Of a DNA stretch of 64,000 bases, positions 3,917 through 43,086 are shown in pieces. The stretch is from assembly GCA_044376085.1 (NCBI GenBank), contig JBILLN010000017.1:3186-67185 (forward strand), read 5' to 3'. Position 1 is the first letter of the stretch. Each line of letters opens with the position of its first letter. Source of the stretch: Bradymonadia bacterium. GTDB taxonomy: Bacteria > Myxococcota_A > Bradymonadia > UBA7976 > UBA1532. The notes below the pieces were generated by a model. That model saw only the letters and a list, made by a program, of their open reading frames with translations, made no database searches and had not been told where the DNA came from. The position numbers and the translations under genes were made by a program.

Positions 3917-3957
3917 TATACCCCAGCGCGGCGTGGCGACTATACTCGCGCCCCCTG

Positions 3958-5601
3958 ATGCGCACCGAAGCCCGACCGACGCGAATTCTGGGGATGCTCG
4001 TCCTGGCGGCCTGCGCCGGGTATCTGGGTGTGTTTCTCTGGGTGGCCGCCCTGCGCCTCGTCTATCCGTTCGAAGTCGAGTGGATGGAAGGCGGCATGCT
4101 CACCCATGCCGCGCGCCTGCTCGACGGGCAGCCCATCTATGCCGCTCCGAGCGCGGACTTCGTCCCGTTCTTCTACACGCCGCTCTACCCGACGCTGCTC
4201 GCCGGCCTCTCCCACCTGACGGGTGGCTTGAGCTTCACCCTCGGGCGCGGCGTGTCGCTCTTCTTCACCCTCTACACGTTCGCGCTCCTGTTCTACATCG
4301 GCCGGCGAGAGGCCGGTCCGCGGGCCGGGCTCGTCGCCGCCGGACTCTACGCGGCGATGTTCCGGTTCACCGGCGCCTTCTACGACGTGGCGCGCCCGGA
4401 CGCGATGTTCGTCGCGCTGGTCCTGAGCGGGTGCGCCCTGGCCTACTACGATCGTTCGTGGCGGGGGGTGTGCCTCTCGGCCGTGCTCTTCGTGCTCGGA
4501 CACTTCACGAAACAGACGACGAGCGTGTTCGTGCCGATGGTCGGGTTGTGGCTTCTGTTCCGCAGTCCCCGGCAGGCGGTGGTGTTCGGGGCGCTGGTGG
4601 GTGTACTCGCCGTGCTCGGCACCGTTCTGTACGACCGAGCCACCGGGGGATGGTTCTGGACCTATATTTTCGAGGGTCACCAGGGCCATCTGTTCTACTG
4701 GAAGAATATCTTGATGGAGTACTGGCGGGATGTGCTGTTTCTCGCCCCGATTCTGCTGTTGATGCCCCTCTTGTGGTTCTCGTACCGGATCCCGGTGACG
4801 ATTCTGTCGCTCTTTCTGGTCGTACACTGGGCGTATGCGTTCTGGTTCCGCGCCACAACGCTCGACTACGTGCCCCATATGTACTATCAGGAACTCTGGT
4901 ACGAGACGCCTCGCTGGGCGATCCTCGTCCCCCCGTTGCTCATCGGTGGGCTCGTGGCACTGTACCGGTGGCGATATCGAGGGACACCGCCAGGGCCGCT
5001 CTCCGTCAACGTCTTCTTCCTGCTGTGTTACGTGGCCGGTACCGGCTCGAGCGGGCTCAACCACAGCACCCAGTGGGCCTACGCGAACTGTTTCATGCCG
5101 ATCGCGGTCTTCGGCGCCCTGTTCCTGGCGCTCGTGGCCGAAGATCTGAGCCGGACGCCCCTGGGCGGGGGCCTCGTACGGGGTGCGCTGCTCGTGCAGC
5201 TCGCCGCCTTCGTCTATCACCCGGGGCGGCAGGTCCCCGGGCGCGCCGACTACGAGGCGCTCACGGAGCTGCACGCGGCCCTCGAGGCGCACCCGGGGCG
5301 ATTGTTCGCGCCCGCCCATCCTTTCCTGGCCTGGTCCCGGGACGGCCGCGTTCACGTTCACCAGATGGGTATTCAGGATGTCGCCTTCATGGGCGGCGTC
5401 CGCGACCTGGAACGCCGGCTCGCCGCCCACGAGTGGGGGGTCGTCCTGCTCGAGGAGCAGAACCGCATCCCCGGCCTCGAGCGGCACTATCGTCAGGTCC
5501 GGCGCTTCCAGTGGGCCGACCCCGACGCATTGCGGGCGAAGACCGGGTTCCTCGTTCGGCCGCAGAGCCTGTGGGTGCCGAAGGTCGGCCCGGCGCGCTG
5601 A
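3958..5601 (+). CDS. GT-C fold membrane glycosyltransferase (GT39/GT83-like; PMT/ArnT family).
   Basis: The product has about 12 predicted TM helices rich in aromatic residues. The N-terminal loop YPFEVEWMEGGM resembles the acidic loop-1 motif of lipid-linked sugar transferases. The start was chosen at MRTEARPTRILGML, because the longer ORF overlaps the upstream minus-strand gene. Confidence 0.55.
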   Translation: MRTEARPTRILGMLVLAACAGYLGVFLWVAALRLVYPFEVEWMEGGMLTHAARLLDGQPIYAAPSADFVPFFYTPLYPTLLAGLSHLTGGLSFTLGRGVSLFFTLYTFALLFYIGRREAGPRAGLVAAGLYAAMFRFTGAFYDVARPDAMFVALVLSGCALAYYDRSWRGVCLSAVLFVLGHFTKQTTSVFVPMVGLWLLFRSPRQAVVFGALVGVLAVLGTVLYDRATGGWFWTYIFEGHQGHLFYWKNILMEYWRDVLFLAPILLLMPLLWFSYRIPVTILSLFLVVHWAYAFWFRATTLDYVPHMYYQELWYETPRWAILVPPLLIGGLVALYRWRYRGTPPGPLSVNVFFLLCYVAGTGSSGLNHSTQWAYANCFMPIAVFGALFLALVAEDLSRTPLGGGLVRGALLVQLAAFVYHPGRQVPGRADYEALTELHAALEAHPGRLFAPAHPFLAWSRDGRVHVHQMGIQDVAFMGGVRDLERRLAAHEWGVVLLEEQNRIPGLERHYRQVRRFQWADPDALRAKTGFLVRPQSLWVPKVGPAR

Positions 5602-5628
5602 GTGCGGCTCGAGCCACGGGCAAAGAAA

Positions 5629-5648
5629 AGGGCGCCCTGGGGCGCCCT
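5629..5648 (-). terminator. Rho-independent terminator for the lipoprotein gene; it may act bidirectionally for the convergent GT-C gene.
   Basis: A perfect 8-bp stem AGGGCGCC-CTGG-GGCGCCCT is followed on the minus strand by TTTTCTTTG (forward caaagaaaag at 5621-5629). Confidence 0.5.
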
Positions 5649-5680
5649 CCGTCACGGTCCCCGTCGGGGGCCGCTCGAAC

Positions 5681-6949
5681 TCACTGCGCCGCGGCGACGC
5701 CCGTGATGTTCACGCCTTCCATCTCGACCTGGAGGCAGACGCCGATGGCGTTGCAGTCCCCGGTCTGGGGGTTGCAGTCGCCGGGCGCGCCGGCGTCGTC
5801 GACCTTGGAGTCGAAGCCACCGAGGAAGCTGCTGATGAGGTCGATGCCGGCCTGGCAGTCCTCGGGGGTGCAGGACCCCGGAGGCAGGATGCTGTTCAGC
5901 GTGCTGCAGAAGCTCGGGGGCTCGGGGGCCGCGCAGGCGCCCTGGAGACCCGAGAGCAGGCCGACGATCGAGTCCTGCGTGAGGTAGCCGCCGATGAGGC
6001 CGTCCGTGAACTTGTACCCCACGCCGTTGGCGCCGATGCCGACGTAGCCGGCGACCTGGGAGGCCTCCAGCGCGAGGGAGATCGGCAGACCCTGGATCGG
6101 CAGGGTGAGCGCGAAGCGGGAGCTCGGCGTCCGGAGCGCGCCGTTCGCCCCAATGGTGGCGCCCGGGAAGTGGATCAGCGGGGTGGTGCCGTCCGCGGCG
6201 AAGCTGGCGGGGTCGATGAGCCATTCGCCCTCGGCCGCGCCGGAGTCACCCGTGTAGAGCTGAAGGTCGATGTCGCCGGTGGCCCCGAAGGCCTCACCGT
6301 CGTCGGCGCCCACGAGGCGGCTGAGCAGCTTGAGCTGGATCTCGCCGGTCTCGTCGGGCTGCACGAAGCTGCCGAGGCCCGAGTCGCCGCAGGCGGCGGG
6401 GTCGGCCGGGGGGGCATCCGGGTTGAGCAGCGGGAGCAGGCCGGCGAGCGCCGTGCCCTTGGAGGCGCCGTACAGGCGGCAACCGACGTCGATCGCGCAC
6501 TGCGGGCTGGCCGGGACGTTGATCCAGTTCACGCGGGCCGCGGGGCCGAAATCGCCGGGGGCGGCCCAGGTGCAGGGCTCGGTGTCGCAGGGGGTCTGGC
6601 TCGGGGGCCCGGCGCAGACGGCGTCGCCATCGACGCAGCCCTCGGGGGGCGGGGGGAGCTCACCGCCGGTCGCGCCGCCGGTGCTGCCACCGGTGCTGCC
6701 GCCCGTGGTACCACCCTCGGGCTCGGTGCCGCCGGTGGTGCCGCCCGTCGGCGTCCCGCCAACGGGGGTGCCGCCCGTGGGGGTGCCGCCCGTCGGCGTG
6801 CCGCCGGTGGTCCCACCGGTCGCCTCGCCGCCGCTGCCGGAGCCGGCATCCGACTTGTCGCCGCCCTCGGCGCTCGTCGAGTCCTCACCACACGCAACCA
6901 GGGCCGCCGTGGCCAGGGCTGCAACCAGAAGCTCGTTCAGCTTCACCAT
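5681..6949 (-). CDS. Secreted lipoprotein with a Gly/Thr/Pro-rich linker and a Cys-containing C-terminal domain.
   Basis: The signal peptide ends in the LVAC lipobox (MVKLNELLVAALATAALVACG), and GGAGG lies 7 nt upstream of the ATG. Residues about 40-95 are GGTTGGTPTGG repeats. The start was chosen inside the longer ORF. Confidence 0.6.
   Translation of the reverse strand: MVKLNELLVAALATAALVACGEDSTSAEGGDKSDAGSGSGGEATGGTTGGTPTGGTPTGGTPVGGTPTGGTTGGTEPEGGTTGGSTGGSTGGATGGELPPPPEGCVDGDAVCAGPPSQTPCDTEPCTWAAPGDFGPAARVNWINVPASPQCAIDVGCRLYGASKGTALAGLLPLLNPDAPPADPAACGDSGLGSFVQPDETGEIQLKLLSRLVGADDGEAFGATGDIDLQLYTGDSGAAEGEWLIDPASFAADGTTPLIHFPGATIGANGALRTPSSRFALTLPIQGLPISLALEASQVAGYVGIGANGVGYKFTDGLIGGYLTQDSIVGLLSGLQGACAAPEPPSFCSTLNSILPPGSCTPEDCQAGIDLISSFLGGFDSKVDDAGAPGDCNPQTGDCNAIGVCLQVEMEGVNITGVAAAQ
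6661..6840 (-). repeat. Imperfect tandem 15-nt repeats encoding the (GGTPT)n linker.
   Basis: Units such as ggtgccgcccgtcgg and ggtgccgccggtggt recur and encode GGTPTGGTPTGGTPVGGTPTGGTTGGT. Confidence 0.6.
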
Positions 6950-7081
6950 TGATTCCTCCGCGCGGGCCAGAAGTTCCCCGCTTCGACCGTGTTTCGACGC
7001 CGACTTGACGCGTCGGGTGCTTTTAGCAGAAGCGCGACGAACGGTGCAAAGGGACAGTGTGGGCAAACGCCACACCCGCAT

Positions 7082-8878
7082 TCATTCGCCGTCGGATTCG
7101 GGTTCGCCCCGGGTGATCGCCAAGTGGCGGAAGATCGTTCGGGGATCGACGCCGAGATCGCGGGCGGTCTTCGTCCGGTTGCCGCCATTGAGCGCGAGGA
7201 CCTCGTCGATGTAACGGCGCTGGAAGGCCTCCTTCGCCTCCGCGAGTGGCAGGACGCGGCCCGCAAGGACGTCGTCGGAGAGGTCGAGGTCCCTGGGCGA
7301 GAGCTGGAGGTCGTCGGCGAGGACGACCGCCTTCTTGATCCGGTTCTCGAGTTCCCGGATGTTGCCCGGCCAGGCGTGCTTCCGCAGGGCGATGATGGCT
7401 TCGCGGGTGAAGCCGTGAATGGGCCGGCCGAACTCCTTCGAGAACTTCTCGAGCAGGAAACGCGCGATGAGCACGACGTCTTCGTCCCGGGCTCGCAGGG
7501 GCGGGAGTTCGATGCTGACGACGTTGAGGCGGTAGTACAGGTCCTCGCGAAAACGGCCGAGCTTGATGGCCTCTTCGAGATTGACGTGCGTGGCGGCGAC
7601 GACCCGGATGTCCACCGGTGTGGGGCGCGTCTCGCCGACCGCAGTGACGACGCGCTCCTGGATCGCCCGTAGCAGTTTCACCTGCAGGTTGGGCGGCATC
7701 TCGCCGATCTCGTCGAGGAAGAGGGTTCCGCCGTGGGCCGCCTGGAAGCTGCCCATCTTGTTCTCCACCGCACCGGTGAACGCCCCCTTGCGATGCCCGA
7801 ACAGCTCGCTCTCCATCAGCGACTCGGGAATGGCGCTGCAGTTGATCGCCACGAAGGGCGCGTTCTTGCGTCGAGAACGCCGGTGGATCTCGCGGGCGAT
7901 GAGCTCCTTGCCCGTGCCGGTCTCGCCGAGGATGAGCACGCCGATGTCCGCGACCGCGATCTTCTCGACCCGACGGAAGACCTCGCGCATCACGTCGCAG
8001 GCCCCGATGATCTCGCCGAATTTCTGGCGCTCGAGGTCGAGGCGGAGCTCGGCGGTCTCGGCGCGCAACGCTTGCACCTGCATTGCGTGCTGAAGCAACA
8101 GGGCGGCCTGCGACGCGAAGACCGCGAGCAGCTCGAGCGAGCGCGGTTCGAAGAGGTTCACGACATTGTCGTTGCCCACGTAGATGACGCCCAACAGATT
8201 GCCCTGGAAGAGCAATGGAACGCACATCACGCTGCACAGACGCAGCTGCATGACCGAAATGCTGGCGTTGAACGCCGAATCGTTGAGGGCATCGCTGACG
8301 ATCAGCGGCTCGCGAGACTCCAGCACCCGATTGATGATGCTGTCGCTGACGTGGTCGAGGCTGGCCGCGATGCTCTCCTTGTTCAGATTCCGGGCCGTGC
8401 AGACCCGCGGCTCACCATCGCGCATGATGAGCAGGAACCCCTTGTCCGCGCCGGTCAAGGCCACGACCTCGTCGAGCAGCGCCTCGAGCAGCTCGTCGAC
8501 CCCCACACGGCGCGCAAGGTGATCCGAAAAGGCCGCCAGCCGGCGGTAGGCCTGGAGTTCGTCGACCGCGGGCCCCGCCTCTCGCTCCATGGTGGTGCGG
8601 TCGTCCCAGAGGTGGAACTTCAGCGCCGTCTGACCGAGGAGAATGGCGTCCCCGTGCTCGAGGATGTGTTTGCGGACCGCTTTGCCGTTGACGAGGACGG
8701 GATACGCCCGATGCTCGAGGGCCACGAGAACGAACCGGCCCTCTTCGAGGCGCACGTGCGCATGGGTGGCGGCCACGCCGGGGCCGTGGACGACGACGTC
8801 GTTCTCGGGATCCGCGCCCACGGACGAGAGTTTGCGCACCAGGGGCTGGGAGCGGCCCGCAAAGATCAGACTGGGCAT
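7082..8878 (-). CDS. Sigma-54-dependent transcriptional activator with N-terminal FHA and GAF domains.
   Basis: The FHA region is VGADPENDVVVHGPGVAATHAHV...NGKAV. The central AAA+ region has GETGTGKE, ESELFGHRKGAFTGA (the GAFTGA sigma-54 contact) and LFLDEIGEM. A C-terminal Fis-type HTH is present. The start was set at MPSLIF, because the upstream part of the ORF is occupied by a separate gene. Confidence 0.8.
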   Translation of the reverse strand: MPSLIFAGRSQPLVRKLSSVGADPENDVVVHGPGVAATHAHVRLEEGRFVLVALEHRAYPVLVNGKAVRKHILEHGDAILLGQTALKFHLWDDRTTMEREAGPAVDELQAYRRLAAFSDHLARRVGVDELLEALLDEVVALTGADKGFLLIMRDGEPRVCTARNLNKESIAASLDHVSDSIINRVLESREPLIVSDALNDSAFNASISVMQLRLCSVMCVPLLFQGNLLGVIYVGNDNVVNLFEPRSLELLAVFASQAALLLQHAMQVQALRAETAELRLDLERQKFGEIIGACDVMREVFRRVEKIAVADIGVLILGETGTGKELIAREIHRRSRRKNAPFVAINCSAIPESLMESELFGHRKGAFTGAVENKMGSFQAAHGGTLFLDEIGEMPPNLQVKLLRAIQERVVTAVGETRPTPVDIRVVAATHVNLEEAIKLGRFREDLYYRLNVVSIELPPLRARDEDVVLIARFLLEKFSKEFGRPIHGFTREAIIALRKHAWPGNIRELENRIKKAVVLADDLQLSPRDLDLSDDVLAGRVLPLAEAKEAFQRRYIDEVLALNGGNRTKTARDLGVDPRTIFRHLAITRGEPESDGE

Positions 8879-8910
8879 GGGACTTCCGGTGGCGCTGGGC
8901 CGGCAGGGGT

Positions 8911-9795
8911 TCAGGGACCGAAGAAGCGGAACAGGGCGCCGGTCGGTTCGACCGCCGGGGACGGACCGAGGTCCGGACGCGCGCCGGGCGCCGAAAATTC
9001 GCGGTTGATTTCGGTGTTCTCCCGGAACGTGAGCTGGGCGTGCAGGATGCCACCGAGCGCGACGAGCAGCGCACCGTATCCGAGCCCGAGCTGTGCGGCC
9101 TGATAGGCCTCGGCTCGCTCCGCATCGGACGGGGCGTAGCGCCCCGACGGCTGACGCAGGCTCTCGACGCCCTGGGCGAAGCCGATGGACAGGCCGGCGA
9201 GGACGAGCTGGGTGCCGAGGAGCAGTCCGCCCGTCACGTACTGCCCGTCCTGAAGCTGACCCGCACCGAGGGGCATCGCCGCGACGAAGCGACTGTTGCG
9301 CCGGAGCTCGACCTTCTCGACGACGGTATTGGCGCGGCGACGGCGCTCGTCCTCTTCGGCGAGCTGCTTCTCGAGCGCCGCCTTCTGGCGGGCGAGCTCC
9401 TCGGCCAGGGAAGCGCGGACGTCTTCGTAGAACTGAACCGCCGGCGGTGGCACGAGCAGCGGATCGAGGTGCTTCTCGGGTTCGAGCCGCACCAGGCGTT
9501 CGAAGTACTTGCGGGCCTCGGCTTCGCGCCGCTGGTAGAAACACGCGAGTCCGAGGAGCTCGTAGCTTCGGGCGAGGTCGACACGGTCGGCCAGGAGGCT
9601 CTTCGGCTCCACGAGCGGGGTGAGCTTGTCGATGACGCGGTCGAAGTCTCCGTAGGTGAACCACCCCTCCGCGTCGCGCAGATCGTCCGTCGGGCCGGCG
9701 AATGCGGGGCCGGCGGTCAGCAGGGCACAGAGCGCCGTGGCGAGCCGGAGCCGGTGACGCGCCGCTCGGCGAGGCGGGGTGGCACACGGGGACAT
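8911..9795 (-). CDS. Hypothetical secreted/membrane protein with a TPR-like N-terminus, a coiled coil and C-terminal TM helices.
   Basis: The signal peptide is RLRLATALCALLTAGPAFAG. An acidic coiled-coil stretch (ARQKAALEKQLAEEDERRRR) is present. Two hydrophobic segments follow. The gene lies between the kinase and activator genes with 14-nt and 32-nt gaps. Confidence 0.45.
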   Translation of the reverse strand: MSPCATPPRRAARHRLRLATALCALLTAGPAFAGPTDDLRDAEGWFTYGDFDRVIDKLTPLVEPKSLLADRVDLARSYELLGLACFYQRREAEARKYFERLVRLEPEKHLDPLLVPPPAVQFYEDVRASLAEELARQKAALEKQLAEEDERRRRANTVVEKVELRRNSRFVAAMPLGAGQLQDGQYVTGGLLLGTQLVLAGLSIGFAQGVESLRQPSGRYAPSDAERAEAYQAAQLGLGYGALLVALGGILHAQLTFRENTEINREFSAPGARPDLGPSPAVEPTGALFRFFGP

Positions 9796-9809
9796 CGGTC
9801 GTTCGGCGC

Positions 9810-11636
9810 TCAGAAATCCACGGTTTCGGTGGTGGTCTTGCCGGCCGCGAGGCTCACGTCGCGGGTCTGGAGGCTAACCCCGGGCTCCCCGATGGTCAAG
9901 CGGAGGGCCTGTCGGATCGCGGTCATCGGCACTTCGATCTCCGCGTTGGTCTGCCCGAGCAACTGGCCGTCGGATTTCCGTCGGACCGGGGCGTCTCTGT
10001 TCGAGGCGATGCGCAGCCGCGCGGGGAGGGGGCTGCACCGGGCGACGAGCGGGGGGACGCGTTCCTGACCCGGTTCGATCACGACCGGCAGGAGCAGTCG
10101 CTGGCAGGATTCGTGCCGGATGTCCACGACATGCTGGCCGGGGGCGAGGAGCAGGCCCTCGGCGCGCTTGACCTCGTACATGTAGCCGTGACGTGCGCCG
10201 TCGACGTAGACGTGGCTGCTCATCAGATCGGCGCGGACGTCGACCCGGACCGGACGGGCGGGCGGGGTGACGGACGGGGCGGTCGGGGCGGCGCTGCGAG
10301 GCCCCGGAGGCGGTCGACTCGGGCGCGCGGCGACGGAGGCGGGCGCCGACGGGGGCGCGGTGGTGGGGGGCGTCGTGCCGGGGACGGGCCCGCTCGGCGG
10401 CGGGGGGGCGCTCGGCCGAGTGGCCGGGGTGGAAGGGGGCGCAGCGGAACTCGCCGCCACGGGCGCGGGCTGCAGGTCCGGTGGCGGGTCCGGAGCGGGC
10501 GCCGGCCAGAAGGCGACGACCGTCGCGACCGCGGCGGTCGTCGCCACGCCCCCGAGCAGGCCGACGACGAAGCGGCGCCGGCGATGCCCGCGTTCGATGC
10601 GGGTCAGGAGCGCTCGTGCGGCGGGATGGGTCTCGTCGAGGGCGAGCACCCGGTCCAGGAAGTCGAGGGCGCGCGCCGTCTGCTTCGCCGCGAGCGCGCG
10701 CTCGGCGGCGGCGAGGTAGGGCGGGATGACGCGCTGCGGCAGGGCGTCTTCGTAGGCGACGGGGTGGTCGAAATAGGCGGCGAGCTCCTTGGGCAGGTCA
10801 CCGAGACCGGCCTCCGCGAGCTGTGCCCGGAGCGCGTCCGCCACCACCCGGGCCCGCTGCGGTCGGTCGGCGGGATCCCGCTGGAGGCACTGCTCGATCA
10901 GCCGTGCCAGGGGTTTGCCCGCCGTCGGGCGTCGCTGCAGGACCGGGTCGAAACGACACTCGAGAATGCGACGAAACAGCGCGGCGGGATTGGGGCCGGT
11001 GAAGGGAAGAACGCCGCACACGAGCCAGTAGAGCACCGTACCCGCGCTGAAGACGTCCGCGCGGGCCGTCACGTTCTGGCCGTCGACGACCTCGGGGGCC
11101 ATGTGGGCGGGCGAACCCAGAATCGTGCCCGTTTGCGTGAGCGTCTCCATGTCCACGAGCTGCGCGATGCCGAAGTCCATCAGAATCGGCAGACCGTTGC
11201 GCGCGATCATCACGTTCTCGGGTTTGACGTCCCGGTGAACGATGCCGGACTCGTGCGCGTGGTCGAGCGCGTCGAAGAGGGGAACGGCCAGCAGGGCGGC
11301 CACCTCGGTGCGGCGCAGCGGGTGCTCGTCGACGAACGCCCGCAGCGTGGGGCCGTCGATGAACTCCGAGACGATGTACGCGCGCTCGGAATCCGGCGGC
11401 GCGAAGTCGAAGACCTCCAGGATGCTGGGATGGTGCAACCGGGCCACCGCCTGCGCCTCGCGCTCGAACCGCTCGCGAGACTCGGCCCGGGCGGCGAGGT
11501 GGGGGTGAAGCACCTTCAACGCCACCGTCCGCCCCAGGGCGGGATCGCGGGCGCGGTAGACGACGGACATTCCGCCCCGCCCGATCTCGCGATCTATCTC
11601 GTAGCGGCCGAGCCGCTGTGGCGTTGACGTATCCAT
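9810..11636 (-). CDS. Hanks-type Ser/Thr protein kinase with one TM helix and a Pro/Ala-rich extracytoplasmic C-terminal region.
   Basis: Kinase motifs present: GRGGMSVVY, VALKVL, HRDVKPENV, DFGIA and APE. A TM segment (FVVGLLGGVATTAAVATVVAF) follows the kinase domain. The start was set at MDTSTPQRLGRYEI. Confidence 0.8.
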   Translation of the reverse strand: MDTSTPQRLGRYEIDREIGRGGMSVVYRARDPALGRTVALKVLHPHLAARAESRERFEREAQAVARLHHPSILEVFDFAPPDSERAYIVSEFIDGPTLRAFVDEHPLRRTEVAALLAVPLFDALDHAHESGIVHRDVKPENVMIARNGLPILMDFGIAQLVDMETLTQTGTILGSPAHMAPEVVDGQNVTARADVFSAGTVLYWLVCGVLPFTGPNPAALFRRILECRFDPVLQRRPTAGKPLARLIEQCLQRDPADRPQRARVVADALRAQLAEAGLGDLPKELAAYFDHPVAYEDALPQRVIPPYLAAAERALAAKQTARALDFLDRVLALDETHPAARALLTRIERGHRRRRFVVGLLGGVATTAAVATVVAFWPAPAPDPPPDLQPAPVAASSAAPPSTPATRPSAPPPPSGPVPGTTPPTTAPPSAPASVAARPSRPPPGPRSAAPTAPSVTPPARPVRVDVRADLMSSHVYVDGARHGYMYEVKRAEGLLLAPGQHVVDIRHESCQRLLLPVVIEPGQERVPPLVARCSPLPARLRIASNRDAPVRRKSDGQLLGQTNAEIEVPMTAIRQALRLTIGEPGVSLQTRDVSLAAGKTTTETVDF

Positions 11637-11800: not shown

Positions 11801-12202
11801 ATGGCGGATGAGAAAGAAAAGAAGAACATCCTCGTCATCGAGGACGAGGGCCACGTGCGAACGCTCGTCAGCCGACTCCTCGAGAAGAACGGGTACACCG
11901 TCCGGACGGCCGAGGACGGCCTCGACGGGTTGCGCGCGCTCGAGGTTTTCCGCCCGGACCTCATCATCGCGGACGTGATGATGCCCAACCTCGACGGCCT
12001 CACCTTCACCAAGGCCCTCAAGAACCGCCGCGAGACGAAGGCCATCCCGGTGATCTTCCTGACGGCCAAGACGGACCCGCTCTCGATGATCGAGGGCATC
12101 AACGTCGGTGCGAAGTTCTACATCACCAAACCGTTCCAGATCGAAGACGTGCTCGCGAAGGTCAAGAAGGTCCTGACCGAGCGCGGTCACCGCATCGACT
12201 GA
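11801..12202 (+). CDS. Single-domain response regulator (CheY-like receiver).
   Basis: It has acidic residues (EDE) near the N-terminus, the phospho-acceptor context DLIIADVMMPNLDG, and the conserved T (LTAKT) and K (ITKPF) residues. Confidence 0.85.
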   Translation: MADEKEKKNILVIEDEGHVRTLVSRLLEKNGYTVRTAEDGLDGLRALEVFRPDLIIADVMMPNLDGLTFTKALKNRRETKAIPVIFLTAKTDPLSMIEGINVGAKFYITKPFQIEDVLAKVKKVLTERGHRID

Positions 12203-13359
12203 GGTCGGCCGGCCTCGGTCGGGCCGGGCTCCGGCGGTCGTGCGGCGATGCGCTGCACGATGATCTCGATTCGGCGGTTTCGACTGCGTCCGTCCCGAGT
12301 GCCGTTGTCTGCAATCGGGTCCTCGCCACCTCGACCGACCACGGTGAGGCGGTGGGCGCCGATGCCGCGCTCCACCAGACGGTCCCGGATGGCCGTGGCG
12401 CGACCGGCGCTCGTCGCGAGGGCGGCCGCGACATCGGCTCGCGCGTCGGTGTGCCCCTCCACCCGGAGGGCGAGGGCCTCGGTGGTCGCCAGCAAGGCGG
12501 CGACCCGGTCGACGTAGGGCAGACGATGCGGCATCACGGCCTGGGAACCGTCGGCGAAGAGCTGGCGCATCGTCAGAACGAGGCCGCGTCCTTCGAGGCG
12601 GGCCTCGAGCTCGGGGACGCCGCTGGCCTGCGCCAGGAGTCCGCGGAGTTGCTCCTCGACCGCCTGGCGTCGCCCTTCCTCGGCAAATCGCGGCGTCACG
12701 TCGGACAGCAGACGCTGGGAATGCAGCGTGGCGCGGTCTACGGCCAGCTGTCGCTCCGCGGGTCCCGTGCGGCCGTCCTCGAGGGCGGCGAGCGCGCCTT
12801 GCAGGGCGTGCAGGGCCTGCAGATCGTCGGCCGGGGCGAGTCGGGCCGAAGCGCGTGCGTCTGCAAGGCGGAGCGCGGAGAGCGCTTCTGCGAGCCGCTG
12901 GCCATCGGGCGACGCGCGGCGACCGGCGAGACGGGTCTCCATCTCGGCGAAACGGGCGGCCCGCTCGACCCCTTCGATGGCCGTGCGTTCCCGTCGACGA
13001 GCGTCGGCGAGGCGTTCGTCCATCAGTCGTTGGCGGTTCAGCACCTCGGCCAGGCGCATCTGGTGGGTCTTGCGCTGGGCGTAGGCCTCCGCGGCCAGGA
13101 ACTGCCACCGCGCGAGACGGGCAAGGTGCGCGGCCTCCTCGAACCGTCCGGCATCGTCGGCGGCCTCGGCCTGCAGGAAGAGCGCATCGGCGGTCGCCGT
13201 GAGCTTCGGCAGCGTCCGGGCGACGTCGTCGCCGGCCGGCGACGCCCGGAGGCGTTTGTACTCCCGCAGATCGGAGATGCCTCGCGTGCCGCCGCAGGCC
13301 GCGAGCAGGGAAACCAGCACGGCGAGGGCCGCCGTGACGCCCGGTCCCGTAGGCCTCAC
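12187..13359 (-). CDS. OmpA/MotB-domain lipoprotein.
   Basis: The signal peptide ends in the LAACG lipobox. A long Ala/Arg-rich coiled-coil region is present. The C-terminal OmpA-like peptidoglycan-binding domain is LVLTMRQ...VEGHTD...NRRIEI. Confidence 0.7.
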   Translation of the reverse strand: MRPTGPGVTAALAVLVSLLAACGGTRGISDLREYKRLRASPAGDDVARTLPKLTATADALFLQAEAADDAGRFEEAAHLARLARWQFLAAEAYAQRKTHQMRLAEVLNRQRLMDERLADARRRERTAIEGVERAARFAEMETRLAGRRASPDGQRLAEALSALRLADARASARLAPADDLQALHALQGALAALEDGRTGPAERQLAVDRATLHSQRLLSDVTPRFAEEGRRQAVEEQLRGLLAQASGVPELEARLEGRGLVLTMRQLFADGSQAVMPHRLPYVDRVAALLATTEALALRVEGHTDARADVAAALATSAGRATAIRDRLVERGIGAHRLTVVGRGGEDPIADNGTRDGRSRNRRIEIIVQRIAARPPEPGPTEAGRPQSMR

Positions 13360-13826
13360 GGAGCGGCCGAGCCCGGGGCGGCGGTCCGCAGACGGTCCTC
13401 GGCGGCCCGGGCGCGGACCTCCGCTTCGGTCATGACGAGCGCCGTCTGGGCCAACTGCGCCTCGGCGCGGCCGAGCGCGACCTCGACTTCGACCTGCGAG
13501 AGCAGCGCGTCCACCATGTCCATCTGCGCGGAGACTTCCGCCCGGAGCTGATCGAACCGGCCGAGGTCGTTCCGCGCAAGCGCGAGGGAGGCCGCTTGCA
13601 GGTTCTTCTTCACGGCGACGAGGGGCGCGCCGATCCGGCCTCGGGCCGTGCCGAGTTCGGCGCCCCCGGCGTCGCCCCCCTCGAGCCGATGGATGCGGAG
13701 CAACTGCTCGACGAGGAAGGCCCGGCGCGACTCGACGACGACGGGCTCGGCGCCGTGGGCCGCCGGCGCCAGCACGGCGATCAGACCGGGGAGGGCCGCC
13801 GTCGCAATCCGGGACCGGGCCCGCAC
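13356..13826 (-). CDS. Hypothetical secreted coiled-coil protein.
   Basis: A signal peptide is present (ATAALPGLIAVLAPAAHGA). Its start lies 5 nt after the prkA stop, and its stop overlaps the next start (ATGA). Confidence 0.4.
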   Translation of the reverse strand: MRARSRIATAALPGLIAVLAPAAHGAEPVVVESRRAFLVEQLLRIHRLEGGDAGGAELGTARGRIGAPLVAVKKNLQAASLALARNDLGRFDQLRAEVSAQMDMVDALLSQVEVEVALGRAEAQLAQTALVMTEAEVRARAAEDRLRTAAPGSAAP

Positions 13827-13831
13827 GGTGG

Positions 13832-16066
13832 TCAGCTCGCCCGGTGGCGCTGTTTCAGGAGCGCGCCCACGACGTCCCGGGCGACCGCCGGGGCGTACCC
13901 GAAGTCGTCGTTCAGGCGGGCGAGGGTCGAGTCGACGACCGTCCGCTCCTCGTCGGTGAGGTGGGCACCGTCGTCGAGGAGCGCCGCCAGCAGGTTCTTC
14001 TTGATGCGGTCCGCCGCCTGCCGCTTCTCCTCGTAGAACGAGTCGGTGAGGCGGGCATGCTGATCACCGAAGATCTCGACGAGATCGAAGGTGGCGTCGG
14101 GGTGGTCCATGCGCCAGGCCCCGATGCGATGCAGCACGCCGCCGCGGACGTCCTGCGGGGAACCATCCTGGCCGAGCCGCCGCTCGACGTCGCGCATCAG
14201 GCCCTCGTCGGGGTCTTCGTAGCGGCCCGTCAGGGGGTTGAGGCGCTTCTCCTTCTTGACCCAGTGGGTGACGTGCTCGACGTAGCGCTTGAAGAGGTCG
14301 GCCGTGCGGTCGGCGTCGATGAGCCCCATCGCCTGATGCAGCTCTTCCTCCAGGAGAGCGTAGTACCACTCCCGGACGGCGTCGACGAAGACCTCGGGCT
14401 TCTGGTAGTCGCCGTCCGGTTCCACGCGCAACCAGTCGTAGATCTGGGCCTGCTTGCAGAGATCGGTCAGCTCGTCGAAGAGCGCCACGGGGGAGAGGCA
14501 CGCGTGACCTTCGCGCCGGGCGGCGCCGAGCAGCGCGGCCTTGATCTCCCGCGGGCTGGCGCCCAGGCGCCCTTCGTACGGTTTGCCGGGCTCCGATTCG
14601 CGATGCAGGACGGGAATGTACGTGCGCAGCTCGTTCACGACGTCCCGCGGCAGGCCCCCGGGCACTTTGCCGCGCGCGTAGAGTTCGGCCTTCTGCAGGG
14701 GCGTGAGGCGGGCGAGCGACTTGCGCAGGGGCGTCGGGGCGAGCTCGGCGACGGGGCGCCGCAAGCGCGTGAGCACGGCCCACAGCGCGGCGACCGTCTC
14801 CGTGTGGGGGGCGACCGCGCGCCGGATGACGGCCGGAGAGAGCTGCTGACGGTAGATCCGGGCCTCCTCCGTGTAGTCCGTCAGATACGGGACACGGACC
14901 AGCTCGATGCGGGCCTTGAAGCTGGCGAAATCGCCCATCTCCGTGAAGGCGTCGAGGTGGTTCGCATTGCTGCTCCCGATGAAGACCGCGTCGAGGTGCA
15001 GGGTCATCATGTCGAGGCTGGCCGTGCCCTTCTCGCACGTCGACAGGATGTACTTGAAGGCCTCGATCGGCCGCTTGAGCAGGTCGTTGAACTCCAGCAC
15101 GCCCCGGTTCGCGTCGACGAGATCACCCACCGCTTCGTAGAGATTCAGGTTCTGGAGCGAGGGGGGAAGCGCCGAAACGCTGCGGTCCGCCGTGATCTGG
15201 CGCGCCCCGGCGTCCACCCGCATCTGCGGATCGACCGTGACGGCGGCGGCCCGGTACCGGCGCGAGATGTGGAAGCGCTCGACCTGGACGTGGCGCAGCA
15301 CCTCGCCCAGATCGCCGCCCGAGGCCTTCAGGAGGGCGTCGAAGATCGCCCGGGAGCGGGGCGAGAGGTCGCCTTCCGCCAGGGCGTCCGGCAGGGGCGC
15401 ATCCGGACCGAGGAGGCCTCGGAGGAACTCGATCCTGGCCTCGCGGGGCAGCAGCAGGAGGGGGTGGTCCCGCAGCTCGCTGCGGATGCGGGCGTCGACG
15501 TCGGCGTCACCGAGGTGCGCGAACGTTTCCAGATTCTGAACGCCGCTCTGCGCCCCGAAGCCGATGCTGGAGCGTTCCAGCTTGCGGGTCGGGAAGACCC
15601 AATTGAACGTGTAGAGCGCGCCCTCGGGCTCGCGGCTGTAGTGCTCGAGGGCCCGCAGCACGCAGGCGATGAAACTGCTCTTCGCGCTGCCGTTCGGCCC
15701 GTGCAGCAGGATCAGCTTGTTGACCCGGCCCTCGCGCACGAAGTCCTGGACGAGGCCGAAGACCTGCTCCTGGACCGCTTCGTGCCCGATGAGGGGGTCG
15801 CGCCCGCCGTCGAACGGACAGTCGAAGAGTTTGAAGCGGGTCAGCTTGCCGTAGGGTCGCTCGAGCTTCTCCGTGCCGTAGTAGAGAAAGCAGTCGCGCA
15901 GATACGTGGCGGCGTCGCGGGCCTGGTGAGCGGGCGCCTGGCGGACCACCTCCAGGTAGTCGGCGAACGAGAGGAGGCTCTTCTCCGCCACGAACCGCTC
16001 CCGCGTCCGGGCGATGGTCGCGTCGAGGAACGCCCCGGAGCCGGGGACGGGTGCGGGATCGGGCAT
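13832..16066 (-). CDS. prkA: PrkA-family serine protein kinase (YeaG-like; AAA+ domain plus kinase domain).
   Basis: The P-loop LILLHGPNGSAKSS is present. The long PrkA-specific N-terminal segment is FDGGRDPLIGHEAVQEQ. The length and overall order match PrkA/YeaG. Confidence 0.8.
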   Translation of the reverse strand: MPDPAPVPGSGAFLDATIARTRERFVAEKSLLSFADYLEVVRQAPAHQARDAATYLRDCFLYYGTEKLERPYGKLTRFKLFDCPFDGGRDPLIGHEAVQEQVFGLVQDFVREGRVNKLILLHGPNGSAKSSFIACVLRALEHYSREPEGALYTFNWVFPTRKLERSSIGFGAQSGVQNLETFAHLGDADVDARIRSELRDHPLLLLPREARIEFLRGLLGPDAPLPDALAEGDLSPRSRAIFDALLKASGGDLGEVLRHVQVERFHISRRYRAAAVTVDPQMRVDAGARQITADRSVSALPPSLQNLNLYEAVGDLVDANRGVLEFNDLLKRPIEAFKYILSTCEKGTASLDMMTLHLDAVFIGSSNANHLDAFTEMGDFASFKARIELVRVPYLTDYTEEARIYRQQLSPAVIRRAVAPHTETVAALWAVLTRLRRPVAELAPTPLRKSLARLTPLQKAELYARGKVPGGLPRDVVNELRTYIPVLHRESEPGKPYEGRLGASPREIKAALLGAARREGHACLSPVALFDELTDLCKQAQIYDWLRVEPDGDYQKPEVFVDAVREWYYALLEEELHQAMGLIDADRTADLFKRYVEHVTHWVKKEKRLNPLTGRYEDPDEGLMRDVERRLGQDGSPQDVRGGVLHRIGAWRMDHPDATFDLVEIFGDQHARLTDSFYEEKRQAADRIKKNLLAALLDDGAHLTDEERTVVDSTLARLNDDFGYAPAVARDVVGALLKQRHRAS

Positions 16067-16579: not shown

Positions 16580-16721
16580 GCGTTGACCCGGGGCCGACCG
16601 CGGCCCGTAGAAGCGCGGGGCGCTGGTGCGGCGGGATGCCGCGCACCGCCCACGACGCCGCGGGATCTAACACCCGGGCCGGTGGATTGCAACGGGACCT
16701 CCGCCGCGCTATCCGTAGCGG

Positions 16722-18038
16722 ATGCGAAGGCCGCGCTGGCTCGGACCGTACCGATTGCTGTACCGGATTGCCTCGGGCGGCATGGCGGAGATCTATCGCG
16801 GCGCGCGGACGCTGCCCGACGGGACGGTCTGCCCGGTCGCGGTGAAGTGCATCCTGCCGCTCTACACGAGCGATCCCGAGTTCGTCGGGATGCTCGAGGA
16901 CGAGGCCCGGACCTGCGGCCTGCTCGACCACCCCAACATCGCCCGGATCTACGAGCTCGCCAACGTCGACGAACAGTGTTTCCTGGCGATGGAGTTCGTC
17001 GACGGCATGGATCTGCGCTCCATCGTTCGCCGGGGTCGCGAACGCGATGCCGAACTCCTGCCCGCGTGGGCCGTCCACATCGTCGAGCGCGCCCTCCGCG
17101 GCCTGCAGGCCGCACACGCGCAGGGCGTCGTTCACCGTGACTTCACCCCGTCGAACATCCTGGTGAGTTACCAGGGCGAGGTGAAACTCATCGACTTCGG
17201 CATCGCGAAGGCGGCCCACAACCGCTCCCAGACCCGCAGCGGGGTGATCAAGGGCAAGGTTCGCTACATGAGCCCCGAGCAGACGATGGGGAAGCGCCTC
17301 GACGCGCGCTCGGACGTCTTTGCGGCGGGCGTGGTGCTGTACGAGGCGATCACCGGTCACGCGCCGTTCCACGCACCGGACGACGTCTCGCTGATGGAGG
17401 CCATCCGCAACCAGGAGCCCGATCCGCCGTCGCACCATCACGGAGGCCTGCCGCCCGCCCTCGACGCCGTGTTGGCCCGCGCCCTCGCGAAGGAGATCGA
17501 CGCCCGCTTCCCGACGGCCGCGATGTTCGCCGACGCGCTCGCACCCCTGCTCGGCGAAATGGCCCCGGGATTCGAACCGTCGGAGCTCGGCGCGTTCCTC
17601 TGCCGGATCTTCGCACGGGAGCGACGGGAGGCGGAGGAACAGCTCAGCGAGTTCGATCTCGACGTGAGCCCCGACGACCTCACGCCGACCGGCGCTCGCC
17701 AGGGATACACCCGGCTGGTCGGGATCGGTCCGTTCGCGGAGCAGCCGCCCGGCGAGGATCTGCGAGACGTGGTCGACGAGTGGCTCGCCGCGCGTCGGGC
17801 CGCCCGCGCGAGCGACGTTCCGGGCGCCGGCGCCCCCGTCGAGGCCACGCCGGCGGCGAACGGCGAAGAGAGTCCGTGGTCCGGCGACGTCCGCCCGGTC
17901 TGGGTCGAAGAGACGGGTCGGACGCTGGAACTCGAAGCCATTCACAGCGCCCTGCACGAGACCGGCGAAACCGAACGCCCGGATACCGGCGTCTTCGAAC
18001 GAGAGAACGAAACGACGACCCGGAACCCCACCGAATGA
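16722..18038 (+). CDS. Hanks-type Ser/Thr kinase homolog with a degenerate catalytic loop (HRDFTPSN).
   Basis: The VAVKCI lysine, the alpha-C glutamate, DFG and SPEQ are present. The glycine loop is SGGMAEIY (third Gly replaced by Ala). The catalytic loop is HRDFTPSN, lacking the Lys of HRDLKxxN. Confidence 0.75.
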   Translation: MRRPRWLGPYRLLYRIASGGMAEIYRGARTLPDGTVCPVAVKCILPLYTSDPEFVGMLEDEARTCGLLDHPNIARIYELANVDEQCFLAMEFVDGMDLRSIVRRGRERDAELLPAWAVHIVERALRGLQAAHAQGVVHRDFTPSNILVSYQGEVKLIDFGIAKAAHNRSQTRSGVIKGKVRYMSPEQTMGKRLDARSDVFAAGVVLYEAITGHAPFHAPDDVSLMEAIRNQEPDPPSHHHGGLPPALDAVLARALAKEIDARFPTAAMFADALAPLLGEMAPGFEPSELGAFLCRIFARERREAEEQLSEFDLDVSPDDLTPTGARQGYTRLVGIGPFAEQPPGEDLRDVVDEWLAARRAARASDVPGAGAPVEATPAANGEESPWSGDVRPVWVEETGRTLELEAIHSALHETGETERPDTGVFERENETTTRNPTE

Positions 18039-37578: not shown

Positions 37579-37592
37579 TGGTCGGGTCTCCC

Positions 37593-41907: not shown

Positions 41908-41924
41908 GGCAACTCCCGTGCCGC
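41908..41924 (-). promoter_or_regulatory. Sigma-54 (-24/-12) promoter upstream of metalloprotease gene 2.
   Basis: The minus-strand sequence is GCGGCACGGGAGTTGCC, i.e. GGCACG-N4-TTGC with canonical GG/GC spacing. It lies about 115 nt upstream of the ATG at 41792. An A-tract is immediately upstream and two G8 tracts lie further upstream. Confidence 0.5.
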
Positions 41925-43028: not shown

Positions 43029-43071
43029 GTGGACGTCCTCGCGGAGAGTGAGATGAATCGAGGGCCGTCGA

Positions 43072-43086
43072 GCAAGATGCGTGCCC
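43072..43086 (-). promoter_or_regulatory. Sigma-54 (-24/-12) promoter upstream of the radical SAM gene.
   Basis: The minus-strand sequence is GGGCACGCATCTTGCT, i.e. GGCACG-N4-TTGC. It lies about 45 nt upstream of the ATG at 43028, within the 157-nt gap after the GT4 gene. Confidence 0.5.

What the first reader, a model, noticed from the sequence alone, without database searches (positions are those of the whole stretch)
7082..11636. Operon pairing a transmembrane Hanks kinase with an FHA-domain sigma-54 activator
Gene order on the minus strand is kinase (with periplasmic C-terminal domain), then a 294-aa secreted/membrane coiled-coil protein, then an FHA-GAF-AAA+-HTH activator, with 14-nt and 32-nt gaps. 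FHA domains bind phosphothreonine, so the kinase is the obvious partner that would recruit or regulate the activator. This is a eukaryote-like phospho-relay feeding into sigma-54 transcription. The middle gene, with signal peptide and two TM helices, may be a co-sensor. The target promoter is unknown; none was detected in front of the adjacent lipoprotein gene.
Basis: partly seen in the sequence, partly recalled or inferred. Interest (0 to 1): 0.55.

Follow-up and report, generated by a model that had tools for sequence, protein, structure and literature searches.

The report
Kinase, membrane partner, sigma-54 activator operon
A membrane Ser/Thr kinase, an uncharacterised membrane protein and a sigma-54 transcription activator form a three-gene unit kept together in dozens of myxobacterial genomes, but the activator's FHA domain lacks the residues that normally bind phosphothreonine, so how the kinase controls it is still unknown.

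Summary
Three co-directional minus-strand genes lie 14 and 32 nt apart: a catalytically intact Hanks kinase with one TM helix and an extracytoplasmic C-terminal domain, a 294-aa signal-peptide/TPR/long-helix/2-TM protein, and an FHA-GAF-AAA+-HTH sigma-54 activator.

The pairing is not chance. Of 65 species-level Myxococcota loci with enough upstream sequence, 64 keep the middle gene and 61 keep kinase, middle gene and activator.

Aligned to GarA, the phosphothreonine contacts R81, S95 and N117 correspond to A22, A36 and Y59. The Ser is essentially absent family-wide and the Arg is nearly absent in this window's clade. Functional coupling is well supported. Canonical pThr docking is not.

In a sister clade (57 loci) the activator gene is followed by a palindrome TGACA-N4-TGTC, a helically phased sigma-54 promoter and two lipoprotein genes, a likely direct target. 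The window's clade has a different lipoprotein behind a conserved sigma-70-like motif. The window holds no such palindrome, although the DNA-recognition helix is identical in both clades.

Linking Ser/Thr kinases to FHA-type activators in myxobacteria dates from 2005. I rate this a new variant of a known kind, of moderate interest.

The parts
9810..11636 (-). Hanks-type Ser/Thr kinase, 608 aa. Kinase domain at aa 12-265, helical TPR-like juxtamembrane region, TM helix at aa 355-379, Pro-rich linker, then an extracytoplasmic C-terminal domain from about aa 466 to 608 with no Pfam family.
   Evidence: Searches give the domains, motifs and TM helix. One search finds no family for the C-terminal domain. 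One search shows the activation-loop T-x-T-G invariant in six orthologues.
8911..9795 (-). Middle membrane protein, 294 aa. Signal-like N-terminus, two TPR-like repeats, a long helix, the invariant motif P-[FL]-G-x-G-Q-[FL]-Q-[ND], two TM helices and a disordered tail.
   Evidence: No Pfam or NCBIfam family. 1328 representatives at E<=1e-10. Directly upstream of the activator gene in 64 of 65 loci.
7082..8878 (-). Sigma-54 enhancer-binding protein, 598 aa, with architecture FHA-like, GAF, AAA+, HTH_8.
   Evidence: Pfam. (Walker A, GAFTGA, Arg finger). (NifA/NorR-like from residue 113, below every equivalog cut-off).
8600..8878 (-). FHA-fold domain (aa 1-93) lacking the canonical pThr contacts: G21-A22 in place of G-R, A36..H39 in place of S-x-x-H, and no Asn in the beta6-beta7 loop.
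   Evidence: alignments. (pLDDT about 90 or higher). (Foldseek match to GarA 6i2q_B, rmsd 1.4 A, 28% identity).
8563..8599 (-). Disordered FHA-GAF linker (aa 94-105) holding T95 and T96. A Thr in the motif WD[ED]PxTxE is conserved in clade I and is a candidate phospho-acceptor. This is inference only.
   Evidence: pLDDT below 50 for residues 94-105. (linker alignment).
8084..8566 (-). GAF domain (about aa 105-265).
   Evidence: (Foldseek matches to the Lcd1 and PtsP GAF domains).
7283..8011 (-). Sigma-54 interaction AAA+ module and lid (aa 290-532).
7127..7231 (-). Fis-type HTH (aa 550-584). The helix GNRTKTARDLGVDPRTIFRHL is identical in clade I and clade II.
7021..7050 (-). Conserved promoter-like motif TTTGCAC-N14-CTGCTAAAA. 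It reads as a sigma-70-type promoter: -35 TTGCAC, 18-nt spacer, TGn, then TAAAAG. It lies between the activator stop codon and the lipoprotein gene.
   Evidence: present with fixed spacing in 15 of 16 clade I loci and in the window. The loose pattern occurs only 23 times in 2.07 Mb of locus sequence counted on both strands.
5681..6949 (-). Gly/Thr-rich, Cys-rich lipoprotein (422 aa, lipobox LVAC). It is the conserved downstream neighbour in clade I only and is unrelated to the clade II lipoproteins.

Best explanation
This is one copy of a conserved Myxococcota signalling operon.

Shown by computation:
- A catalytically competent membrane Hanks kinase, an integral-membrane TPR protein and a sigma-54 activator are inherited as a unit.
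- The activator has every feature needed to remodel sigma-54 RNA polymerase.
- Its N-terminal domain has the FHA fold but not the canonical phosphothreonine pocket.
- In the sister clade the activator gene is followed by a palindrome, a phased sigma-54 promoter and lipoprotein genes.

Inferred mechanism:
- The kinase, together with the middle protein, senses an envelope or periplasmic cue through its extracytoplasmic domain.
- The kinase then acts on the activator's N-terminal regulatory region, made up of the FHA-like domain, the disordered Thr-containing linker and the GAF domain.
- It does so by docking through a non-canonical FHA surface and probably by Thr phosphorylation.
- This relieves GAF/FHA-mediated inhibition of AAA+ ring assembly.
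- The activator then binds TGACA-N4-TGTC sites and fires sigma-54 promoters of envelope lipoprotein genes.

In this window's clade the cis-linked target has been replaced. The neighbouring lipoprotein gene has a sigma-70-like promoter. The target of this copy must therefore lie outside the 64-kb window.
For: - Synteny: 64 of 65 loci keep the middle gene and 61 of 65 keep kinase plus middle gene upstream of the activator. The flanking genes differ between loci.
- The kinase motifs are intact and the activation-loop T-x-T-G is conserved.
- The activator has GAFTGA, Walker A/B, an Arg finger and an HTH.
- The FHA fold is modelled with confidence and matches GarA.
- The linker is disordered and holds a conserved Thr.
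- In clade II a sigma-54 promoter follows the activator gene in 41 of 55 loci, against 1.3% of background windows.
- In clade II the palindrome is present in 37 of 54 loci, against 0.125 expected per window. Its distance to the promoter clusters at 67-69, 78-81 and 88-91 nt.
- The palindrome-plus-promoter composite occurs in 39 clade II loci. It occurs in no clade I locus and not in the window.
- The recognition helix is identical in both clades.
- A GAF domain inhibits the AAA+ module in the myxobacterial activator PexR (PMC12754779).
Against: - The canonical pThr contacts are absent: A22, A36 and Y59 against GarA R81, S95 and N117.
- Three of 65 loci keep the middle gene and the activator without an adjacent kinase.
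- The window has no sigma-54 promoter or palindrome near the operon, and no palindrome with one mismatch or fewer anywhere in 64 kb.
- No conserved Ser or Thr is found in the cytoplasmic loop of the middle protein.
- Nothing here is experimental, and almost all relatives are uncultured MAGs.
Confidence: 0.5

Rival explanations
1. The FHA domain is a classical phosphothreonine reader. It docks on autophosphorylated Thr residues in the kinase activation loop or juxtamembrane region, as mycobacterial FHA proteins do with PknB.
For: - The FHA fold is present and its best structural match is GarA, including the PknB-GarA complex 6i2p.
- The T-x-T-G motif in the kinase activation loop is conserved.
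- Synteny is tight.
- R or K is retained at position 22 in 33 of 56 clade II loci.
Against: - All three canonical contacts are substituted in this protein.
- Ser36 is essentially absent in both clades, and Arg22 occurs in 1 of 16 clade I loci.
- The Pfam score for the YscD-type FHA-like model is as high as for FHA itself.
- YscD- and PrgH-type FHA folds lack the pThr motif, and the authors concluded they are unlikely to bind pThr proteins (PMC3635987).
Confidence: 0.15
2. The FHA-like domain is a phospho-independent interaction or oligomerisation module. It holds the activator on the kinase or the middle protein, or keeps it inactive. The actual signal enters through the GAF domain, either as a small ligand or metal or through phosphorylation elsewhere.
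For: - The pThr pocket is lost while other surface residues stay invariant: K16, T38, R/K57, K70, H71, H75.
- The middle-gene/activator pairing is tighter than the kinase/activator pairing (64 against 61 of 65), and three loci lack the kinase.
- There is precedent for phospho-independent FHA folds and for GAF-sensed control of myxobacterial activators.
Against: - The kinase is still retained in 94% of loci.
- The conserved R/K57 lies in the loop that canonical FHA domains use to contact phosphate, so an alternative phosphate pocket is not excluded.
- No ligand-binding residues were identified in the GAF domain.
Confidence: 0.3
3. The genes are only neighbours. They are co-transcribed or co-inherited, but the kinase does not signal to the activator.
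For: - Myxococcota encode very many kinases and activators.
- Part of the clade I synteny (PrkA, OmpA-like protein, response regulator, PMT_2, sulfatase) only reflects relatedness of the genomes.
Against: - The three-gene core persists while everything around it changes, across clades as low as 41% identical.
- The intergenic gaps of 14 and 32 nt contain no terminator-like site on the coding strand.
Confidence: 0.05

Closest known systems
FHA-type sigma-54 enhancer-binding proteins of Myxococcus xanthus (Jelsbak, Givskov and Kaiser 2005, PNAS; for example MXAN_4899)
   Same: An N-terminal FHA domain is fused to a sigma-54 AAA+ module and an HTH. Both are myxobacterial. A link to the abundant Ser/Thr kinases was already proposed. 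(The 2005 paper is cited in PMC11980068. Its content is from my own knowledge because the paper is not held.)
   Different: MXAN_4899 is 459 aa. Its length leaves no room for a GAF domain, which is my inference and was not checked. The protein here has an extra GAF domain and a degenerate pThr pocket. It sits in a conserved operon with a kinase and a membrane protein. I could not test orthology to any M. xanthus gene.
PknB or PknG with GarA in mycobacteria
   Same: GarA is the best sequence and structure match for the FHA domain. A membrane Hanks kinase controls an FHA protein, and a Thr-containing flexible segment lies next to the FHA domain.
   Different: GarA keeps R81, S95 and N117 and regulates metabolic enzymes, not transcription. 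Here those residues are A22, A36 and Y59, and the output is a sigma-54 ATPase.
PknH with EmbR in Mycobacterium tuberculosis (from my own knowledge)
   Same: A transmembrane Hanks kinase is encoded next to a transcription regulator that carries an FHA domain and is its substrate.
   Different: EmbR is a SARP-family regulator with a canonical C-terminal FHA domain and acts with sigma-70-type RNA polymerase. There is no GAF domain, no AAA+ module and no conserved membrane partner.
PpkA, Fha1 and TagQRST, the threonine-phosphorylation pathway of the Pseudomonas type VI secretion system (reviewed in PMC10482370; details from my own knowledge)
   Same: A membrane Hanks kinase with a periplasmic domain works with accessory envelope proteins upstream of it and an FHA protein downstream.
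   Different: The output is post-translational assembly of a secretion machine, and the FHA domain is canonical.
Cytoplasmic FHA-fold domains of YscD, PrgH and MxiG in type III secretion systems
   Same: The FHA fold is present but the pThr-binding motif is not conserved (PMC3635987). The Pfam model Yop-YscD_cpl scores 35.7 bits on this protein.
   Different: Those are structural ring components of a secretion machine, not regulators fused to an ATPase.
GAF-regulated sigma-54 activators: NifA, NorR, FhlA and M. xanthus PexR
   Same: The GAF-AAA+-HTH core is shared. The NCBIfam NifA and NorR models align from residue 113 onward. In PexR the GAF domain inhibits the AAA+ module.
   Different: All scores fall below the equivalog cut-offs. 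None of those proteins has an FHA domain or an operonic Hanks kinase.

Membership tests
Bacterial sigma-54 enhancer-binding proteins | Sigma-54 interaction AAA+ domain with Walker A/B and an Arg finger | tested here: met
   PF00158, E 6.5e-72 over the full-length profile. GETGTGKE and REDLYYR are present, and LFLDEIGE can be read in the sequence.
Bacterial sigma-54 enhancer-binding proteins | GAFTGA loop that contacts sigma-54 | tested here: met
   GAFTGA at residue 365.
Bacterial sigma-54 enhancer-binding proteins | C-terminal DNA-binding HTH | tested here: met
   PF02954 HTH_8, 30.2 bits against a cut-off of 22.
Bacterial sigma-54 enhancer-binding proteins | A sigma-54 (-24/-12) target promoter with an upstream activator site | tested here: not met
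   None is near the operon or recognisable in the 64-kb window. The feature is met in clade II relatives: promoter in 41 of 55 loci and palindrome in 37 of 54. In the window the target is simply not found, so this does not argue against membership.
FHA domain as a phosphothreonine-binding module | FHA beta-sandwich fold | tested here: met
   PF00498, 34.8 bits against a cut-off of 20.7. AF2 pLDDT about 90 or higher for residues 1-93. Foldseek match to GarA with rmsd 1.4 A.
FHA domain as a phosphothreonine-binding module | Conserved Gly-Arg, where the Arg contacts the phosphate (GarA R81) | tested here: not met
   The protein has G21-A22. Clade I has Arg in 1 of 16 loci. Clade II has R or K in 33 of 56.
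FHA domain as a phosphothreonine-binding module | Ser of the S-x-x-H motif (GarA S95) | tested here: not met
   The protein has A36, while His39 is kept. Position 36 is A in 66 and G in 29 of the 121 aligned sequences. Ser occurs there in 2 of 56 clade II loci.
FHA domain as a phosphothreonine-binding module | Asn or Thr of the beta6-beta7 loop (GarA N117) | tested here: not met
   Y59 aligns to N117 and the position is variable across the family. The neighbouring R/K57 is nearly invariant.
FHA domain as a phosphothreonine-binding module | Measured binding to pThr peptides | not testable with these tools
   This needs ITC, SPR or pull-down assays.
Hanks-type (eukaryote-like) Ser/Thr kinases | Catalytic motifs: Gly-rich loop, VAIK Lys, HRD, DFG and APE | tested here: met
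   GRGGMS (the same pattern as in PknB), VALK at 38, HRDVKPEN at 134, DFG at 154 and APE at 180. Pkinase E 5.9e-47.
PknB/Stk1 PASTA kinases | Extracellular PASTA repeats | tested here: not met
   NCBIfam PknB_PASTA_kin scores 282 bits against a cut-off of 450 and aligns only residues 10-331. The C-terminal domain matches no Pfam family at E<=10.
TPR proteins (middle gene) | TPR repeats above the Pfam threshold | tested here: inconclusive
   One TPR_2 hit at 25.2 bits against a cut-off of 27. The AF2 model shows four TPR-like helices with pLDDT above 90. Foldseek finds only generic TPR matches with E above 0.01.

The most novel reading that the evidence does not exclude
The operon is the core of an undescribed and widespread Myxococcota envelope-signalling pathway. 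In it a Hanks kinase and a dedicated membrane partner control a sigma-54 activator through an FHA fold whose classical phosphothreonine pocket has been replaced. The replacement is either a new phosphate pocket built from T38 and R/K57 or a phospho-independent docking surface. The output is a set of envelope lipoproteins driven from a TGACA-N4-TGTC site and a sigma-54 promoter.
Probability: 0.35. Interest if true: 0.6.

Novelty: new variant of a known kind. Interest (0 to 1): 0.45.

Why it matters
Myxobacteria encode unusually many Ser/Thr kinases and sigma-54 activators, and a link between them through FHA domains has been proposed since 2005. As far as my literature searches could find, no defined kinase-activator pair has been described.

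This module offers such a pair, fixed by synteny in dozens of species. In the sister clade it comes with a predicted binding site, promoter and target genes, so the hypothesis can be tested directly. The degenerate FHA pocket also warns against reading 'FHA domain' as 'binds phosphothreonine'.

Tried and rejected
- **Sigma-54 consensus scans.** I scanned the window and the loci next to the operon. There is no excess in the window (37 matches against 44 expected) and nothing near the operon.
- **Apparent sigma-54 matches inside the lipoprotein genes.** Sequences such as TGGCACCGGTGGTGC (L004, L006) arise from Gly/Thr-rich coding repeats and are not promoters.
- **The clade I motif as a sigma-54 promoter.** I tested TTTGCAC-N14-CTGCTAAAA in both registers and rejected it, because no GG lies at the required spacing. 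The simple sigma-70 scanner did not call it either, because the -10 hexamer lacks the final T. I keep it only as 'sigma-70-like'.
- **Homology between the downstream lipoproteins.** The window lipoprotein shows no homology to clade II lipoproteins A or B, and no A or B homologue exists anywhere in the window.
- **First palindrome search.** It used the wrong spacing (N5) and gave nothing. The correct spacing is N4.
- **Family searches.** Pfam found nothing significant for the kinase C-terminal domain or the middle protein, and NCBIfam had no model for the middle protein.
- **Fold search of the middle protein.** It returned only generic TPR matches.
- **PrkA upstream region.** No sigma-54 promoter was found.
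- **Literature.** The 2005 PNAS paper is not held. Searches for a described FHA-GAF activator paired with a kinase found nothing.
- **Orthology to a Myxococcus xanthus gene.** I could not test it, because only the best 80 of at least 589 genome hits were returned and all are from other lineages.


Full report
**Observation.** The window has about 70% G+C. On the minus strand three ORFs lie head to tail.
- The kinase is 9810-11636, 608 aa from the ATG that matches the orthologue starts.
- The middle gene is 8911-9795, 294 aa.
- The activator is 7082-8878, 598 aa.
- The gaps are 14 and 32 nt.

- The kinase has a Pkinase domain (E 5.9e-47).
- The activator has FHA (34.8 bits, cut-off 20.7) with an equally good Yop-YscD_cpl hit (35.7 bits). 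It also has GAF, Sigma54_activat (E 6.5e-72), AAA_lid_14 and HTH_8.
- The middle protein has only a sub-threshold TPR.

The catalytic motifs of the kinase are all intact, as are Walker A, GAFTGA and the Arg finger of the activator. Hydropathy places one TM helix in the kinase at residues 355-379. A Pro-rich linker and a roughly 140-residue C-terminal domain follow, and that domain matches no Pfam family. Because the kinase domain must be cytoplasmic, this C-terminal domain is extracytoplasmic (inference).

The middle protein has a signal-like N-terminus and two TM helices. Its AF2 model shows four TPR-like helices, one long helix and two TM helices.

**Is it more than chance?** The 120 closest activator homologues (54-94% identity; 116 of them carry a Pfam FHA hit) share the GAF-AAA+ core and, with a few exceptions, the HTH. 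Gene tables for five of them at 56-72% identity all show kinase, a small protein, then the activator. The flanking genes differ: pheST/rplT in L002 and UbiB in L004.

A scan of one genome per species with an FHA+GAF profile found at least 589 relatives. The best 80 are all Myxococcota MAGs (Polyangia, Kofleriaceae, Nannocystaceae, Bradymonadia, Haliangium). The closest is 94% identical.

I built HMMs from the kinases and the middle proteins and searched the loci. Of the 65 loci with at least 3.3 kb upstream, 64 have the middle gene directly upstream and 61 have kinase plus middle gene. Three loci keep the middle gene and the activator without an adjacent kinase. The core trio is thus a conserved unit, and the middle-gene/activator pair is its tightest part.

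The middle protein belongs to a sizeable family with no model. It has 1328 representatives at E<=1e-10 and no Pfam or NCBIfam family. The family has an invariant P-F-G-x-G-Q-F-Q-N motif before TM1 and conserved polar residues inside TM1.

**The FHA domain.** The fold is real. AF2 gives pLDDT of about 90 or higher for residues 1-93. Foldseek matches GarA with rmsd 1.4 A over 93 columns, and also matches the PknB-GarA complex.

The alignment to GarA places R81, S95 and N117 opposite A22, A36 and Y59. Only G21, H39 and the structural N64 are kept. The GarA numbering was checked against chain 2kfu_A.
- In the 121 aligned sequences (the query plus its 120 closest homologues), position 22 is S in 48, R in 33 and A in 25.
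- Position 36 is A in 66 and G in 29.
- Position 59 is variable.
- In loci of this window's clade, Arg22 occurs in 1 of 16.
- In the sister clade, R or K occurs in 33 of 56, and Ser36 in 2 of 56.

Other residues are nearly invariant: K16, T18, S19, T38 (next to the His), R/K57 (in the loop that normally carries the S-x-N-G-T residues), K70, H71 and H75.

Two readings remain. One is a rebuilt phosphate pocket using T38 and R57. The other is phospho-independent docking, as proposed for the YscD and PrgH FHA folds (PMC3635987).

The FHA-GAF linker (residues 94-105) is predicted to be disordered. It carries a conserved Thr in clade I (WD[ED]PxTxE; T95/T96 here). A different conserved Thr occurs in clade II. 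These are candidate phospho-acceptors, by inference only.

**Targets.** The relatives split into two groups by the gene downstream of the activator.
- Clade I is the window plus 17 fetched loci (16 distinct; L001 and L010 are the same contig), with the activator N-terminus at least 51% identical. These are followed by a homologue of the window's Gly/Thr-rich lipoprotein (5681-6949).
- Clade II is 57 loci at 41-47% identity. These are followed by lipoprotein A (about 170 aa, no Pfam family) and, in 45 of them, lipoprotein B (about 590 aa, CarboxypepD_reg-like).

In clade II a strong sigma-54 promoter (TGGCACG-N4-TGCT) lies within 300 nt of the activator stop codon in 41 of 55 loci. Only 1.3% of random windows reach the same score, and 0 of 14 clade I loci do. 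The promoter sits 25-60 nt upstream of the lipoprotein A start codon.

Upstream of that promoter, often overlapping the activator's stop codon, lies a palindrome TGACA-N4-TGTC(A). It is present in 37 of 54 loci against 0.125 expected per window. Its distance to the promoter clusters at 67-69, 78-81 and 88-91 nt, which is one-helical-turn steps. This is the classic layout of an upstream activator site with a sigma-54 promoter. It makes the lipoprotein pair a likely direct target of the adjacent activator (inference).

The palindrome-plus-promoter composite occurs in 39 clade II loci. It occurs in no clade I locus and not in the window. The window has no palindrome with one mismatch or fewer. 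Yet the HTH recognition helix (GNRTKTARDLGVDPRTIFRHL) is identical in the two clades.

Instead, clade I has a conserved motif TTTGC[AG]C-N14-CTGCTA[AC]AA at fixed spacing, usually 17-59 nt after the stop codon. It is present in 15 of 16 loci and in the window at 7050-7021. It reads best as a sigma-70-type promoter with an extended -10 element. The target of this copy must lie outside the 64 kb (inference).

**Mechanism.** My best reading (confidence 0.5) runs as follows.
- The kinase and its membrane partner sense an envelope cue.
- The kinase acts on the activator's FHA-like/linker/GAF region by non-canonical docking and probably by Thr phosphorylation.
- This releases the AAA+ module.
- The activator binds TGACA-N4-TGTC and drives sigma-54 promoters of envelope lipoprotein genes.

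GAF-mediated inhibition has precedent in M. xanthus PexR (PMC12754779). The rivals are classical pThr docking (0.15), a phospho-independent FHA with signal entry through GAF (0.3) and mere co-location (0.05).

**Comparison and novelty.** FHA-type sigma-54 activators and their proposed link to Ser/Thr kinases were described in M. xanthus in 2005 (cited in PMC11980068; the paper itself is not held). MXAN_4899 is 459 aa, too short to hold a GAF domain, which is my inference.

The PknH-EmbR and PknB-GarA pairs and the PpkA-Fha1-TagQRST pathway are the nearest mechanistic analogues. All of them use canonical FHA domains. No NCBIfam equivalog covers any of the three proteins. My literature searches found no description of this FHA-GAF activator with a kinase operon.

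I rate it a new variant of a known kind. The logic is known. What appears undescribed is the degenerate FHA pocket, the dedicated membrane partner and the conserved cis-regulatory output in the sister clade. Interest is moderate (0.45), for three reasons:
- It turns a 20-year-old hypothesis into a defined, testable pair.
- The window's own copy lacks an identifiable target.
- Almost all relatives are uncultured.

Noticed in passing
loci L027-L086, L002 and L004 (for example L038:8856-8963 and L050:8800-8896): In the sister clade the activator gene is followed by a palindrome TGACA-N4-TGTC(A), then a sigma-54 promoter TGGCACG-N4-TGCT, then two lipoprotein genes (about 170 aa, and about 590 aa with CarboxypepD_reg-like domains). 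The palindrome-to-promoter distance clusters at 67-69, 78-81 and 88-91 nt.
   Followed up: yes
window 7021-7050 (-): The conserved motif TTTGCAC-N14-CTGCTAAAA lies between the activator stop codon and the lipoprotein gene. It is shared at fixed spacing by 15 of 16 clade I loci. It looks like a sigma-70-type promoter with an extended -10 element, but which sigma factor uses it is unknown.
   Followed up: partly
window 43071-43086 (-) and 41908-41923 (-): Two intergenic sigma-54-like promoters. GGGCACGCATCTTGCT lies 45 nt before the ATG (43027) of a radical SAM/SPASM gene. CGGCACGGGAGTTGCC lies 116 nt before the ATG (41792) of a 1399-aa Met-zincin-like (DUF4953) gene. Neither has a TGACA-N4-TGTC site nearby, so a link to this activator is not supported.
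   Followed up: partly
window 11801-16066: A divergent single-domain CheY-like response regulator lies at 11801-12202(+). An apparent minus-strand operon holds PrkA (13832-16066), a 156-aa protein (13356-13826) and an OmpA-domain protein (12187-13359). These neighbours recur in clade I loci (PrkA in 11 of 16, OmpA in 12 of 16, response regulator in 13 of 16) but rarely in clade II.
   Followed up: partly
window 16719-18038 (+): A second Hanks-type kinase (439 aa, Pkinase E 2.7e-37) lies across a 650-nt gap upstream of PrkA, where an unannotated open frame on the PrkA strand may encode a small lipoprotein. A kinase also sits near PrkA in L006.
   Followed up: no
window 1733-5601: A sulfatase with a MopE-type metal-binding motif lies at 1733-4099(-) and a PMT_2-family glycosyltransferase at 3955-5601(+). 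Both are conserved downstream neighbours in clade I (12 and 14 of 16 loci).
   Followed up: no
window 5681-6949 (-), about residues 40-100 of the lipoprotein: A Gly/Thr-rich repeat region (GGTPTGGTPTGG...) followed by a Cys-rich part. In relatives the equivalent coding repeats create false sigma-54-like matches such as TGGCACCGGTGGTGC.
   Followed up: yes
window 7000-7016: A short inverted repeat CCGAC-N7-GTCGG lies in the 5' leader of the lipoprotein gene, just after the conserved promoter-like motif. It is also present in the 94% identical relative L007. Its function is unknown.
   Followed up: no
L001/L010 (GCA_020633465.1, JACKDN010000015.1), 4265-6100: The orthologous kinase gene is split into a 389-aa kinase part and a 146-aa C-terminal-domain part. 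This is a frameshift, an assembly error or a real pseudogene.
   Followed up: no
L028, L063 and L082: These three loci keep the middle gene and the activator without an adjacent kinase. In L082 the upstream genes are on the opposite strand.
   Followed up: partly
window 33052-41792 (-): Two very large ORFs (1794 and 1399 aa) each have a Met-zincin (DUF4953) hit. Their stop-to-stop frames overlap by about 840 nt, so the start of the downstream gene is uncertain.
   Followed up: no
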